Assembly: GCA_964016885.1 (NCBI GenBank)
Contig: OZ024742.1
Location: 52,700,001 to 52,764,000 of the forward strand
DNA length: 64,000 bases
Direction of reading: 5' to 3'
DNA from: Eledone cirrhosa
Lineage: Eukaryota
Numbering within the stretch: the stretch's first letter is position 1; each line of letters begins with the position of its first letter. Shown here one piece after another: positions 23,657 to 64,000 of this stretch. Made by a program: the position numbers and the translations under genes. The notes under the pieces are model-generated. The model saw nothing but the letters and a program-made list of their open reading frames with translations. It was not told the origin of the DNA and did no database searches.

Positions 23657-24157
23657 TAACAAAGGAAATGTGGTAAGGAACCAGATGGACCATAACGCAC
23701 CAGAGTACTCAATGCTTAGAGTAGTAGAGTGGGAAATAGGAAAAACTATGACCCCGACGGCAGAGCTCAAGCCGTTTCGACGGCTATTTCTGGACTAAAT
23801 TAGAATTTTTAGCCTGGTGAATAAATAGCCGAACTTGTCAAGGGGTACTTCCTTATATGGGAAGATAGTAGTTGTCAAGAGGATTGGTTAAAATTTGTTG
23901 TAAACACAAATAATTATTTCTACTTTACAAGGCCAGCAATTACCCAGTGCATTACTACACAAATAATGGCATGATAGACTTATTTGTGTTTACAACAAAT
24001 TTTAACCAATCATCTTGACAACTACAATCTTCCCATATAAGGAAGTTCTCTCTTGACAAGTTCGGCTATTTATTCACCAGGCTAAAAATTCTAATTTAGT
24101 CCAGAAATAGCCGTCGAAACGGCTTGAGCTCTGCCGTCGGGCTCATACTTTTTCCTA
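23657..24157. mobile_element. Fold-back mini-derivative of the 39153-43280 PLE family with two U3-A8 HHRs (23751-23846 minus, 24048-24142 plus)
   Basis: Same tail and pLTR end as 39153. Inverted arms, (TA)n flanks, and a roughly 45-bp SINE tail with TSD ACACAAATAAT in the loop. Confidence 0.85.
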
Positions 24158-24309
24158 TATATATATATATATATATATATATATATATATATATATATAT
24201 ATAACCATTTCCGAGAACAATTTGTTTCACCGTAGACGGATCAGCAAAATGAAACAAATTGTTCTCGGAAATGGTGGATATAACCCACCACCACCAGTGT
24301 TCTACTGTA

Positions 24310-24775
24310 TATATACAGTATATATATATATATATATATATATATATATATATATATATATATATATATATATATATATATATATATATATATATACATA
24401 TATACATATATACATATATACATATATATATACATATATATATATATATATATATATATATATATATATATATATATATATATATATATACATATATACA
24501 TATATACATATATATATATATATATATATATATATATATATATATATATATATATATATATATATATATATATATACATATATACATATATACATATATA
24601 TATATATATATATATATATATATATATATACATATATACATATATACATATATACATATATACATATATATATACATATATATATATATATAGAGAGAGA
24701 GAGAGAGAGAGAGAGAGAGTGAGAGAGAGAGAGAGAGAGAGAGAGAGAGAGAGAGAGAGAGAGAGAGAGAGAGAG
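24310..24775. repeat. (TA)n / (TATACA)n then (GA)n microsatellite
   Basis: Simple repeats read directly. Confidence 0.95.
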
Positions 24776-25518
24776 AATTAGTATATCTACCAACATATGT
24801 ATACTGATGTATACCCATGCTAGCAAATATATATGTTATGTCCTACTACCTTTGTGGTTCTATGCAGGGGATGCAAAACAATTATATGAAAGACGTAAAA
24901 TAAGAAAATTTTAAAAATTAAAAATTAACTTACTAAAATTTTCACTCCAACTAATTAGTTTCTGTACGGGAATAAATATAGTTACGCAACGTAACTATAG
25001 AGAAGTCCTTACGTCATCAGGGAGTCTATTCTCAGCCAAGTTCCAAGGCAATGCGCGGACACTAGGAACCCATATAAAAATAATAATTCAGTGGATGGTA
25101 TTTTCTTATTTTACGTCTTTCATATAATTGTTCTGCATCCCCCTGCATAGAACCACAAAGTTACTAGGACATAACATATATATTTACTAGTATGTGTATA
25201 CATCAGTATACATATGTTGGTAGATATACTAATTCTCTATATTTATCTCCAAATTATTGTTGAGCAAAACTTGCCAAAATTTACTGCTATGGTTCATAGT
25301 AGTAGTTAGGCTCTTGTCATAATACCACCCCACTCCTCACTGATTAACCTCAATGTCACGTGATTGATTCTTTAGAATTTTCCACTGACCAAGTAGGCAG
25401 TGAATTTTTTCAGTGCCCTGGAATTTAGTCCCCGCTAGCTTTATTCCATCCACTGAATTATTATTTTTATATGGGTTCCTAATGTCCGCGCATTGCCTGG
25501 GAACTTAGCTGAGAATAG

Positions 25519-60092: not shown

Positions 60093-60974
60093 CCAGGTGT
60101 GTAAGAAAAGTTCCAGGACTGATGTCGCAAAAGATTTATTTCAAACCCAAACTTCACACTAAGAGTTTTCTCCTTCAAAGTAATCCCCCTGGAGTCTAAT
60201 GCATTTTTCAATCCTTTTCTGCCACGCTTGCATGCACTCCTGGAAGGATTCTTCCGGGATCCTCCGCAGTTCCGTCGTCACGGCCTTTTTGATGTCGTCC
60301 ACGTCTTCAAAACGGGTCCCTTCGGGTCGTACTCGAAGATCCATGACTCATCACCGGTGATAACTGTCCCTAGCAAGTCTGGTTCGGTTTCAAGACGCTC
60401 GAGGATGTCCTGGCACAATTGCATGCGTAGACCCTTCTGGTCATCGTTTAGCAGTTTTGGCACCATCTTCACGCAGACTTTCCGCATGTCCAAATCTTTA
60501 GTGAGAATCTTCAAGACGCTGTCCCGATTCATGCCCAGCTCATTTGCCATCAGTCGAACAGTCAGCCGACGATCACTACACACCATCTGCCTGACGCGCT
60601 CAACGTTGACCTCAGTCCTGGTTGTTGAGGGCCTTCCGCTCCTGGGGTCATCTTGCACCACTCAAAAACACGTGAGCGTGACATCGTCTCATCTCCATAC
60701 ACTTCCTGCAGCAATCCCAGTGCTTCTGACGGTGTTTTCTCCAACCGTACCAGAAACTTCAAGTTTGTTCGTTGCTCTGTGCTCATTTCCTGACGACCTG
60801 AAACAGAGGACATGTATATAAAATTATGAAGAAAAAGTTTGATCGCTGCAGAGAGCTAAGATCACAGTTACGTACTCCAGGGGGATTACTTTGAAGGAGA
60901 AAACCCTTAGTGTGAAGTTTGGGTTTGAAATAAATCCAGTGACATCAGTCCTGGAACTTTTCTGACACACCTCG
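60093..60974 (-). mobile_element. Internally deleted mariner transposon with about 100-bp inverted ends and TA target site
   Basis: EQRTNLKFLV..MSRSRVFEW, DDPRSGRPST, ITGDESWIFEYDP fused to KGTRFEDVDDIK..CIRLQGDYFE. Inverted repeats at 60093-60195 and 60874-60974. Confidence 0.92.
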
Positions 60975-60986
60975 TATATATCGGGA

Positions 60987-61961
60987 ATGCTAGCGATCCC
61001 ATACATGGACAGCCTCCAGCGCAAGGCACTCAACACCTGCCACCCCAACGCCGTCGCCTTTTTCTCAAGGTACGTGGACGATATCCTCATCCTCACATCT
61101 TCCCAAGACATGGCAAACAGAATCTATGAGACGTTCAACAACACGGACGAGAACATTGATTTCAGTGTTGAACACCCCAGCGACGATGGGTCACTTGCCC
61201 TCCTCGACTTCCGAATCAACATCACGGAACAGGGAGGGATCCACTACATCTTCTACCTGTTCGTCAACTACATGTCCGCCCTCCCCAACAGTGCTAAAAG
61301 AGGATACATCACGAACGAGATCACGCGAATTAAAAACAGATGCAGCCATCCCGCGAGTGGTGTCACTCATACCAAGCGATTCCTCGAAGTGCTGGAGACG
61401 AACACGTACCCTGCCTCACTTACAAACAGAATAAGAGACACCAGACACAAGAGGCAGAGAAACAGCCAAGGCAAGTGCTTCCTTAAAATACCACACCTGG
61501 GCGAAAATACCACCAACGCTATCCGCAAGGCTATACGGAGTGGGAGCCTCGACATCCACCTGGCCCACTCGGGCCCCTCCCTGCAAAGATGCCTCTCCAG
61601 GAAACCCGGGAAATCAACTGACACGTGCTCTCTCAGAAACTGCCCGATGCGCTATACGAACTGTTGCCTACGCACATACGTCGTGTATAAGATAGAATGT
61701 AACAAGTGCAACCACTACTATATAGGTAGCACAATCCGGCATCTACACATCCGGATCAAGGAGCACATTAACACCAGGGCCTCGTCTTTCCGGAAACACA
61801 TAACCAAATGCGGAAACAAAGACGGAAGGCCCATTGTCACAATTCTAGCGACAGAAAGAAACGTCGGCACATTACAAATCAAGGAAGCACTTTGGATCAA
61901 ACGCCTAGGGCCACAAATAAATAACCGATCCGAGAGAAGCGAAATAAGGTGGTTGGTTTAA
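60987..61961 (+). CDS. 5'-truncated PLE RT C-terminus + GIY-YIG; element extends to about 62680 with an eroded HHR at 62408-62443
   Basis: RYVDDIL, LALLDF, C.LRNC..CLRTYVVYKIECNKCNHYYIGSTIRHLHIRIKEH, IKEALWI..PQIN. Confidence 0.88.
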   Translation: MLAIPYMDSLQRKALNTCHPNAVAFFSRYVDDILILTSSQDMANRIYETFNNTDENIDFSVEHPSDDGSLALLDFRINITEQGGIHYIFYLFVNYMSALPNSAKRGYITNEITRIKNRCSHPASGVTHTKRFLEVLETNTYPASLTNRIRDTRHKRQRNSQGKCFLKIPHLGENTTNAIRKAIRSGSLDIHLAHSGPSLQRCLSRKPGKSTDTCSLRNCPMRYTNCCLRTYVVYKIECNKCNHYYIGSTIRHLHIRIKEHINTRASSFRKHITKCGNKDGRPIVTILATERNVGTLQIKEALWIKRLGPQINNRSERSEIRWLV

Positions 61962-64000
61962 GTAAACAAACGATGCAGCAACACACGCACACACACACAC
62001 ACACACACACAAGCAAGACAGCAACACACGCACGCACACCCACACACAGTAGCATTCCACCATACGAACATACTACACTGCTAATACAGACGAATGAGGC
62101 AACAACACACGAACACACACACTCAAGCGAGACAACAACACACGCACACACACACACACACACACACAGTAACATTCACCAAACAGGCAGAGAATACTAT
62201 CACAACCACACACTATTCAACAGGGCAGATAATACAATGGACTGACAGCTACCTCCACCCACTCCCACAATTGAAAGAACTATTTCGGCCGCCGACCTCT
62301 GCTTGACAGACCCCATTTCACGCGCACGCGCGCTCTGCTGAATACCTCAGCTATTCAAAACAACGAACAGCGGAGGGCGCGTTTCGCACCTTTTCGACAG
62401 ACAACCTTCCCCTTGATGGATGTGAATCCGAAATATATAGGGACAATTAAATCTCTCCCAAGGTAACTCTCTCTCGTGTTATTAATTTTATCCTTTACGC
62501 TCTTACCTACATTCTTCTACACGCTACACATCTCAACCTACATTCACTTACATCTCTCTCCCCACCACCGGATCTTGTTACCCGGAGATTTACCCATCTG
62601 CATTGTTGAGGCTACCAAAACGACCTAAAGAAATATACCTTATTATTCCACAATTCTTCAAGCAAACTTCAATACTCGCTTATATATATATATATATATA
62701 TATATATATATATATATATATATATATATATATAGGAGAAGAGTCAGGATCCCGACGACTGAGCGCCGGCCGTTTCGACAGCTATGATCAAAAATAGCTG
62801 CCGAAACGGCCGGAGCTCAGCCGTCGGGGTCCTAACCTTTTTCCTATTACCCGCTCTACTACCCATAGTATCGAGTACTCTGGTCTGTTATGGTCCACCT
62901 GGTTCCTTACCACACTTCCTTCGTTTTATATATATATATATGTGTGTGTGTGTGTGCGTGTGTTTATGTGTCTATATACATATATATATGTTTGTATACA
63001 TACATATATATGTGTGTGTGTGTGTGTATATTTATGTATGTATGTATATATGTATATATATGTATGTGTGTGTGTTGTAACGCTTAAAGGAGGAACTGGA
63101 TTTACGCTGTAGTAGATAGTAGGGCTTTTGATTCCGTTCATTTAACACAAGTACACATACACACTCATGCGTTCAGATACAAAGCTACATATACATATGC
63201 ATAAACACACCCGCACACACACGCTTTTGTGAATACAGATACACACACAGACAATATCAAGCGCATACAGAGGCATACACACATAATATAAAAATACTTG
63301 TTTCTTTTTCTTTGTTTGCTCAATTCATTTTTCATATAAATTAAACAACAGCACCACCATCAACCCTCCTCCATCATAGCACCACCAACACTCCCTCAGT
63401 AAAAGAAAAACAACAATAGAAGAACAACAAAAACAAGAGTTTACAAAGTGTAATTAAAGTGATATAAAACCTAAAACAAAAGTGAAGGAAAAATAAACAA
63501 TACCTACCCCAACTGTTATATTCCAACAAAATATTTCTTTACAAAGGTGAAACACGAAACAAAACATATTATTACTGAATAACTACAGGGCCAATAATTG
63601 GAAAGAAAATAGTATCTCAAACATTATTGATGATTGTTGATGTCCTCATATCAGCAACCTTCTAAATTGAGAATGAAATCCAATGCCTACAGTAACCATG
63701 TTATCATCTTTCACCAAACATTCCATGATTAATAGGCCTTTCTGCTCCGAATGTCACAGTATTTTAAAATGTTTCTAGTGATCGACAAAAACAACAAACA
63801 AAAAAATAATACCCAATGCTCATTTGAATTATGATGCAAATGTGTCCTATATATATATAAATATATATATATATGTGTGTGTGTGTGTGTGTGTGTGTGT
63901 GTGTGTGTGTGTGTGTGTGTGTGTATACACCCACCCACCCATACATATATATACATATATACATATAAACATATATATATATATATATATACATATATAT

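What the first reader, a model, noticed from the sequence alone, without database searches (positions are those of the whole stretch)
23657..62930. Size series of one PLE family with two invariant, asymmetric ends
Five copies (about 4.1 kb at 39153, 500 bp at 23657, 195 bp at 62734, 175 bp at 46487, 115 bp at 53350) all have 3' ends pointing outwards into (TA)n. One end lies about 95 nt past the predicted HHR cut (a deletion shortens this at 53350) and the other about 18 nt past it (...TTCCTA). Only the inner lengths vary. Inferred: each target strand primes reverse transcription at its own fixed site on the RNA, and the two cDNAs are joined. The same one-sided tail occurs in unrelated families (24776, 45917, 46691).
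Basis: partly seen in the sequence, partly recalled or inferred. Interest (0 to 1): 0.72.

Follow-up and report, generated by a model that had tools for sequence, protein, structure and literature searches.

The report
Penelope-like retrotransposon with one-sided tail
These are insertions of a known kind of animal jumping gene whose back-to-back copies and one-sided tail are already described; they add modest clues that each insertion is copied from two fixed starting points on its RNA.

Summary
Five head-to-head insertions in (TA)n each end once 17-19 nt and once 97-99 nt (71 in one deleted copy) past a predicted hammerhead cut. The long copy encodes a Hydra-type Penelope-like RT/GIY-YIG protein lacking about 95 N-terminal residues. 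The copies are four subfamily types (83-90% identical), not one nested series.

The architecture is known: inverted 5'-truncated copy, one-sided tail, (TA)n target. Two internal RT start sites, used from either DNA strand, were shown in vitro for a lizard PLE.

Added here: an 80-nt tail (published 30-40); a U3-A8 hammerhead core; one tailed plus one tail-less end in 15 of 15 selected window elements and 3 of 4 elsewhere (one counterexample); either arm can be the long one; TA microhomology of at least 2 nt at 12 of 14 ends (P 1.5e-5); arms ending within 25 nt of each other in 9 of 14.

Best model (about 0.6): twin target-primed reverse transcription from two fixed internal sites, joined at the centre. 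One cDNA plus fold-back, and later erosion of the stubs, are not excluded. Genome-wide copies could not be checked.

The parts
39154..43279 (.). Copy A: whole insertion in (TA)n; ORF-bearing tailed arm on minus strand, inverted tail-less arm on plus strand
   Evidence: arms differ by 3 substitutions and one 4-nt indel in about 970 nt
40427..42309 (-). 5'-truncated ORF, Hydra-type PLE RT plus C-terminal GIY-YIG endonuclease (DKT, YRDD, CxCx5C, YIG, CxxC, CxH); about 95 N-terminal residues missing; the open frame runs on to 42340 only through the inverted arm
39154..40426 (-). 3' UTR / pLTR of copy A, 1.27 kb, ending at the long (L) end
39246..39339 (-). Predicted type I hammerhead with U3-A8 core (UUGANAA ... 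GAAA ... GUC); cut after 39251
   Evidence: fold of copy B; 93% of cells paired against 30-58% for slid partners, no covariation; missed by Rfam and by my descriptor
39154..39233 (-). 80-nt tail of copy A, between the S and L sites
42306..43279 (+). Inverted 974-nt tail-less arm of copy A; hammerhead copy at 43174-43267 carries C17 to U
23659..24155 (.). Copy B: tail on the left arm, both hammerheads complete; true spacer about 13 nt
23915..23956 (+). Piece of a dispersed repeat (3128 family) inside B, between two copies of an 11-mer at 23904 and 23957; read as a later insertion
62735..62924 (.). Copy C: tail on the right arm, spacer 8 nt, junction in the 3' strand of stem II
46489..46657 (.). 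Copy D: tail on the left arm, no spacer (2-nt TA overlap), 9-nt deletion in the tailed arm
53351..53461 (.). Copy E: tail shortened by 26 nt; junction with a 3-nt microhomology at the foot of hammerhead stem III
24777..26200 (.). Other family F, copy 1: tandem 539-nt hammerhead units; tail (about 115 nt) on the short inverted arm
4288..4489 (.). Family F, copy 2: stub with the same two ends
43373..45132 (.). Element H, a different PLE (Cx5CxxC linker, two Cys inside GIY-YIG): ORF arm tail-less; inverted arm has a 60-nt tail, about 20 nt of overlap, then a jump to an inverted copy of the ORF start
18410..22669 (.). Element P, second Hydra-type family, decayed: ORF arm tail-less, inverted arm with 163-nt tail; pairing of the far-left end is probable, not certain
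38233..39100 (.). Element K: hammerhead tandem unit; tail-less arm is the longer; tail 83 nt
45919..46438 (.). Element N: arms about 200 nt, spacer 12 nt, tail 108 nt; hammerhead not clear
46692..47209 (.). Element O: arms about 180 nt, spacer 10 nt, tail 154 nt
3490..4258 (.). Element G: tail 97 nt, near-zero spacer, later 296-nt insertion in the tail-less arm
28698..29409 (.). Element M: tail 70 nt on the longer arm; arms identical over 91 nt; no hammerhead recognised
24204..24318 (.). Element Q: 25-nt arms, tail 32-43 nt; no hammerhead recognised

Best explanation
These are insertions of an endonuclease-bearing Penelope-like retrotransposon with a Hydra-type protein. The template is a transcript that reads through the pLTR without being cut by its hammerhead (shown: 10 of 10 arms span the predicted cut). 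The RT/GIY-YIG protein nicks both strands of (TA)n (inferred from PAc and from the flanks). Each 3'-OH primes reverse transcription at an internal site, one 17-19 nt and one 97-99 nt past the cut, helped by a few TA base pairs between primer and RNA (fixed ends and microhomology shown; priming inferred). The two cDNAs stop early and are joined at their inner ends over 0-5 nt of microhomology, often after one folds back or both stop near the same place (inferred). The result is a head-to-head inverted repeat with the 80-nt stretch between the two sites on one side only. Either cDNA can be the longer.
For: Ends fixed across four subfamily types. PAc cleaves and extends both strands and starts at two internal sites that bound the tail; hammerhead cleavage is not needed (PMC11167929). 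One tailed and one tail-less end in 15 of 15 selected window elements and 3 of 4 resolved two-ended insertions from other assemblies. In H and P the tail occurs nowhere else in the window while the other arm carries an ORF, so neither arm is a plain copy of the other. Long arm tailed in A, M, L011, L013; tail-less in F1, K, H, P. TA microhomology of at least 2 nt at 12 of 14 ends; sum 46 nt against 15.2 by chance; P 1.5e-5. L009 and the tandem units of F, K and M show that the RNA continues past the long end.
Against: No biochemistry for this clade. 9 of 14 elements have arms within 25 nt of each other against 2.7 after shuffling, which independent truncation does not give and fold-back does; PMC3846280 read such palindromes as self-priming. 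The E junction sits at a DNA hairpin (stem III, about -5 kcal/mol). H and P could be fold-back products that later lost most of one arm. The large L007 element has two identical 31-nt ends. PAc starts at a site not homologous to the target, unlike the TA microhomology here. The 15 elements were chosen by me, not blind. Some insertions have no inverted arm (59230-60024, 57069-57832, 16910-17158).
Confidence: 0.6

Rival explanations
1. One target-primed cDNA; its 3' end folds back and copies itself; the second end is made by endonuclease cleavage of, or a template switch from, the fold-back strand at a fixed site.
For: Short or absent spacers in 9 of 14. E junction at a pre-formed hairpin. The centre of H duplicates the ORF interior as a palindrome. 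The tail was earlier attributed to EN-mediated resolution (PMC8557442) and junction palindromes to self-priming (PMC3846280).
Against: In H and P each arm has sequence that the other lacks, and K's tail-less arm has 52 nt absent from its tailed arm; this needs large later deletions. D has no loop at all. Both tail boundaries are RT start sites in PAc.
Confidence: 0.22
2. The short lengths of B-E come from loss of the palindrome centre after insertion. This concerns the size series, not the ends, and can hold together with the best explanation.
For: Arm divergence A 0.3%, B 4.0%, C 15.7%, D 10.3%, E 11.8%. C and D break within about 8 nt of each other. D and E carry internal deletions. Microhomology deletions in Penelope copies are reported (PMC3846280). 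Instability of long palindromes is recalled knowledge.
Against: The trend is not significant (Spearman -0.7, P 0.19, n 5; -0.36, P 0.18, n 15). Short arms with no differences exist (M 91 of 91, Q 25 of 25). Heavy 5' truncation is normal for PLEs.
Confidence: 0.35
3. Self-priming on an antisense transcript produces the head-to-head repeat, as proposed for rotifer Penelope elements.
For: Proposed in PMC3846280 to explain junction palindromes and intron retention.
Against: PAc uses sense RNA at internal sites in vitro. It does not explain two fixed outer ends with TA microhomology.
Confidence: 0.06
4. The palindromes are assembly or amplification fold-back artefacts, or MITE-like DNA transposons.
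For: The window also holds symmetrical inverted repeats and a mariner remnant.
Against: Arms differ by up to 16%, ends are asymmetric and shared among distant copies, and the same design occurs in independent assemblies.
Confidence: 0.02

Closest known systems
Hydra clade of C-terminal EN+ Penelope-like elements (Craig et al. 2021, PMC8557442), e.g. Penelope-13_HM
   Same: DKT, CxCx5C, CxxC and CxH motifs, no CCHH, (TA)n target. Penelope-13_HM is listed with a 966-nt 5'-truncated inverted copy at its 5' end; copy A has 974 nt.
   Different: Hammerhead core U3-A8, whereas the Hydra rows of File S2 all begin CUGA; 1.27-kb 3' UTR; ORF-bearing arm above 3 kb even though truncated. By eye it is not the family Hydra-1_Obim (other hammerhead and DNA).
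Poseidon element PAc of Anolis (Frangieh et al. 2024, PMC11167929)
   Same: Two fixed internal start sites downstream of a hammerhead bound the tail; both target strands are extended; uncut RNA is the template. Its main start region lies 85-92 nt past the cut (111-118 minus 26); long ends here lie 97-118 nt past it.
   Different: Tail 30-40 nt there, 80 nt here (32-163 nt in other window elements). PAc starts at a site not homologous to the target; here TA microhomology is enriched. The text I read gives no account of how the inverted arm arises.
Penelope elements of Adineta vaga (Arkhipova et al. 2013, PMC3846280)
   Same: Inverted pLTR, 31-bp tail on one pLTR only, palindromes and microhomology at junctions.
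   Different: Penelope/Poseidon clade with target-site duplications; interpreted as self-priming on antisense RNA.
Twin priming of LINE-1 5' inversions (Ostertag and Kazazian 2001; seen only as cited in PMC10191854 and bioRxiv 2024.12.14.628481)
   Same: Both target ends prime cDNA and the two cDNAs are joined head to head.
   Different: In L1 the second primer lands at variable upstream sites and the arms do not overlap (recalled); here both sites are fixed, 80 nt apart, and the arms duplicate the same 3' region.
U3-A8 hammerheads of Schistosoma Cercyon PLEs (Cervera and de la Pena 2014, PMC4209133)
   Same: Same core covariation in a pLTR.
   Different: Those are minimal motifs thought to work as dimers; here stem III has 5 bp and stem II 9-11 bp.

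Membership tests
EN+ Penelope-like element | Single ORF with RT and GIY-YIG endonuclease | tested here: met
   YRDD at 261, VIY...YIG at 519; 216 homologues, best E 5e-161. Local Pfam and PDB sequence searches gave no match; the fold job did not finish.
EN+ Penelope-like element | Inverted 5'-truncated copy and one-sided tail | tested here: met
   5 of 5 copies; tail 80 nt rather than 30-40
EN+ Penelope-like element | Hammerhead in the pLTR, sense strand | tested here: met
   Three-stem fold, 93% paired, U3-A8 core; self-cleavage not tested
Hydra clade | C-terminal EN; DKG changed to DKT | tested here: met
   DKT at 30; EN after RT
Hydra clade | CxCX5C linker; CxxC and CxH near the C-terminus | tested here: met
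   Positions 485, 583, 611
Hydra clade | CCHH motif absent from EN | tested here: met
   One Cys between VIY and YIG, against two in element H
Hydra clade | N-terminal RWK motif in place of GxKF/Y | not testable with these tools
   This region is missing from the window; RWK in 53 of 120 homologues, many of them truncated
Hydra clade | Insertion into (TA)n | tested here: met
   10 of 10 ends
Hydra clade | Canonical hammerhead core (CUGANGA), described as universal in the clade | tested here: not met
   Core is the covariant UUGANAA in 4 of 4 complete arms. Hence filed as Hydra-type by protein motifs, with membership probable and not proven.
Hydra clade | Placement in the Hydra clade of an RT tree; no CxC and no IFD | not tested
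   Named reference sequences were only readable as paper supplement text, so no tree was built
Naiad/Chlamys | N-terminal GIY-YIG endonuclease | tested here: not met
   EN is C-terminal
Neptune/Nematis | CX2-5CxxC linker and CCHH | tested here: not met
   Neither in copy A; element H has the linker and two Cys
PAc-type two-site TPRT | Both tail boundaries act as RT start sites in vitro | not testable with these tools
   Needs biochemistry; the genomic ends fit

The most novel reading that the evidence does not exclude
A dimeric Hydra-type RNP loads two RT active sites on one uncut transcript, at the S and L sites, each primed by a (TA)n nick that pairs with a TA patch in the RNA. The trailing RT displaces the leading cDNA, so both copy the same molecule and tend to stop at the same barrier or RNA end. 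One step would then explain the one-sided tail, the one-long-one-short pairing, the matching subfamily type of both arms and the near-zero-spacer palindromes of PLEs: same-template twin priming, which my searches did not find described.
Probability: 0.25. Interest if true: 0.65.

Novelty: new variant of a known kind. Interest (0 to 1): 0.36.

Why it matters
How Penelope-like elements make their inverted repeats is named as open in PMC8557442, and the PAc paper leaves the steps after initiation unvalidated. If the one-long-one-short pairing and the TA microhomology hold genome-wide, they would tie the two known start sites to the two ends of a single insertion and give a simple rule for (TA)n targeting. 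Practical points: such stubs look like MITEs or hairpin RNAs (Rfam returned microRNA-type noise), and U3-A8 hammerheads escape CUGANGA descriptors. The basic architecture would not surprise a PLE specialist.

Tried and rejected
Rfam scan: none of the 150 listed matches (of 176) reached a gathering score or was a hammerhead. Local Pfam: no family for the copy A protein. PDB sequence search with the profile: 0 hits at E up to 1. The structure prediction was never returned (last polled), so no fold search was done. The complex predictor was not available, so dimer formation is unchecked; the Atlas could not read the protein. My hammerhead descriptor found 9 rows (8 cores) in other families but missed this family because of a bulge in stem II; its shuffle control used a different filter from the real count and is not used. 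The first pair count had a mis-registered structure string and was redone; there is no covariation signal with only two subfamilies. The microhomology test ran three times: one search had two wrong anchors (42 nt over 13 ends, P 1e-4), one search had flank offsets off by 1-2 nt (24 over 14, P 0.087), and one search placed the junctions automatically and is the one reported. The idea that the tail ends inside the first 12 codons of the ORF is inconclusive (P 0.07), and in L009 the end lies 56 nt before the ATG. A conserved tail hairpin is not supported (z 1.2, -0.1, 0.35). Naiad was rejected (EN is C-terminal). One search cut the tails of F1 and F2 short at internal TA runs; the 115 nt comes. 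Ten of the 29 local inverted matches were left out of the end counts (pairs of dispersed repeats, mariner ends, and four palindromes without PLE ORF or recognised hammerhead).
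Full report
Observation. A BLAST of copy A against the window finds no sixth copy. Each copy is a head-to-head inverted repeat whose sense 3' ends run into (TA)n. From the predicted hammerhead cut, the short (S) ends lie at 17, 17, 19, 19 and 17 nt and the long (L) ends at 97, 97, 101, 99 and 71 nt. The 101 includes two extra T; the 71 reflects a 26-nt deletion. The tail between the two sites is 80 nt. The sequence TAT occurs three times in the last 117 nt of the template, and all five S ends use the first, so the site is specified by more than TA content.

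Corrections. The copies are not one nested series. Their tailed arms are 83-90% identical and show four sequence types just after the cut (A; B; C and D; E); both arms of a copy always share a type. D has a 9-nt deletion in stem III, and B has a 42-nt piece of a dispersed repeat between two copies of an 11-mer.

The protein. The ORF on the minus strand has DKT, YRDD, CxCx5C, YIG, CxxC and CxH, with one Cys inside the GIY-YIG core. These are the traits given for the Hydra clade (PMC8557442 section 11). It has 216 homologues; the listed 120 are 35-56% identical. The 39 aligned homologues have a median of 100 residues upstream of the residue at 42304, and a profile of that region finds nothing significant in the window (best E 0.31). 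The conserved FQxxL of the homologues is replaced by sequence from the inverted arm up to the Leu, which puts the junction at 42306-42310 with an inferred 2-5 nt microhomology. No tree with named references was built, so membership is probable only.

The ribozyme. Rfam and my own descriptor missed it. By hand it is a type I hammerhead with a U3-A8 core. Copy B folds into the three stems (z -2.2); copy A folds similarly but not better than shuffles (z 0.4). The three helices pair in 93% of cells against 30-58% when slid, with no covariation among four arms. The U3-A8 core is known from Schistosoma PLEs (PMC4209133, passages); the Hydra rows in File S2 of PMC8557442 all begin CUGA. All ten arms span the predicted cut, so the template was uncut or re-joined.

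What is known. An inverted 5'-truncated copy, a 30-40 bp tail often at one end only, and (TA)n targeting are described in PMC8557442 (passages, sections 11 and 20, supplement parts 1, 2 and 52) and PMC3846280 (passages and Discussion). Penelope-13_HM carries a 966-nt inverted copy. PMC11167929 (parts 1-3 of 4 of the text; figures not seen; a supplement search gave no hits) shows that PAc nicks and extends both strands, starts at two internal sites with no strand difference, that the tail is the stretch between them, and that hammerhead cleavage is not needed. Searches found no paper that explains the PLE inverted arm by priming at both sites, or that reports TA microhomology for Hydra elements; older Penelope papers are largely outside the library and may say so. 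Also seen: bioRxiv 2026.07.22.740005 (parts 1-2 of 5), PMC13282606, PMC10191854 and bioRxiv 2024.12.14.628481 (passages).

Tests in other elements of the window. Of 29 local inverted matches, 19 belong to 14 elements that I examined; with copy E that makes 15. Ten matches were left out. All 15 have one tailed and one tail-less end, with tails of 32-163 nt. The choice was not blind, and M, N and Q have no clear hammerhead. The tailed arm is the longer in A and M, and the tail-less arm in F1, K, H and P. In H and P the tail occurs nowhere else in the window while the other arm carries an ORF, which one cDNA plus fold-back cannot give without a large later deletion. The pairing of P's far-left end is probable only. 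Where the RNA continuation is known, 12 of 14 ends share at least 2 nt with (TA)n; the sum is 46 nt against 15.2 for random breakpoints (P 1.5e-5; two earlier runs had anchor or offset errors and gave P 1e-4 and 0.087). PAc, by contrast, starts at a site not homologous to the target.

Other assemblies. One scan of genome contigs gave 18 loci with Hydra-type ORFs, which I read as animal DNA in bacterial bins (inference). Four two-ended inverted insertions had both ends resolved: L011 (55 and 118 nt past the cut), L013 (117 nt, and a short end at the site also used by the L007 stub) and the L007 stub (50 and 112) are long/short, whereas the large L007 element has two identical 31-nt ends. L009 and L015 have direct repeats only, ending 114 and 104 nt past the cut. 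The pairing is thus common but not a law.

The centres. In 9 of 14 window elements the arms reach within 25 nt of each other; shuffling arm lengths gives 2.7 on average and never 9 in 100,000 (lengths entered by hand, corrected for later insertions in B and G and the deletion in D, P rough, H left out). E joins through a 3-nt microhomology at the foot of stem III, where the cDNA forms a hairpin. D has a 2-nt TA overlap and no loop. C and D break within about 8 nt of each other. H has a palindrome of the ORF start (spacer 23 nt) and a jump through a G-rich microhomology to the tailed end. These data ask for coupling of the two inner ends: fold-back of one cDNA before it anneals to the other, both RTs stopping at one barrier on one RNA, or later loss of the centre. 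Arm divergence is 0.3% in A, 4% in B and 10-16% in C-E; the trend is not significant, so erosion stays open.

Mechanism and verdict. Most likely (0.6), both nicked strands of (TA)n prime at two fixed internal sites of an uncut read-through transcript, and the two cDNAs are joined at the centre. The fixed ends, the uncut template, the microhomology and the free choice of long arm are shown; priming, the order of events and joining are inferred. One cDNA with fold-back and endonuclease resolution gets 0.22, antisense self-priming 0.06, and erosion as the cause of the stub sizes 0.35 (not exclusive). The boldest reading, two RT sites on one RNA molecule, gets 0.25; dimer formation could not be checked. 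The finding is real and well observed, but it is a variant of a described PLE architecture with a partly demonstrated mechanism. Interest 0.36.

Noticed in passing
window 59230-60024: 5'-truncated endonuclease fragment of a third Hydra-type family with TA runs on both sides and no inverted arm.
   Followed up: partly
window 57069-57832: Direct repeat of a 630-nt unit with a long-stemmed hammerhead at 57504, TA on both sides and no inversion; retrozyme-like.
   Followed up: partly
window 24777-26200, 38233-39100, 28698-29409: Non-coding tandem units (about 540, 420 and 500 nt) with PLE-type ends; the first two carry hammerheads. They look like non-autonomous PLE derivatives (retrozymes).
   Followed up: partly
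window 43373-45132: PLE with an open 412-aa frame whose inverted arm jumps about 1.5 kb through a G-rich microhomology; a possible snapshot of a fold-back strand annealing to the second cDNA.
   Followed up: partly
window 16910-17158 and 8615-8740: A solo 3' end of family K and a solo hammerhead-bearing end running into TA, neither with an inverted arm.
   Followed up: no
window 39191-39154 (minus strand): The tail ends in an ATG and 12 codons (MVHLVPYHISFV) that may be the ORF start; test inconclusive (P 0.07).
   Followed up: partly
window 3128-3323 and copies at 5130, 9660, 13293, 16110, 19566, 20848, 34866, 35124, 37445, 50107, 23915: A dispersed repeat of about 190 nt with at least a dozen copies, SINE-like by appearance; not identified.
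   Followed up: no
window 60095-60972: Mariner-like transposase remnant between 101-nt inverted repeats; family name recalled from the motif.
   Followed up: no
window 942-2879, 5337-8176, 10391-11083, 14956-15845, 51822-52716, 60966-61961: Other retroelement ORFs: a non-LTR RT (Pfam RVT_1 and zf-RVT), a decayed LINE, and further PLE-like frames, one with a Pfam GIY-YIG match.
   Followed up: no
window 18645-19008, 49509-49589, 55726-56123, 22997-23603: Further palindromes without a recognised hammerhead or ORF; left out of the counts.
   Followed up: no
L001-L018: Hydra-type PLE ORFs with hammerheads and (TA)n runs occur in assemblies labelled bacterial; most likely animal DNA in the bins.
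   Followed up: partly
L011:3255-5541: Hydra-type insertion with identical 758-nt arms whose flanks are (TATG)n-like rather than (TA)n.
   Followed up: no
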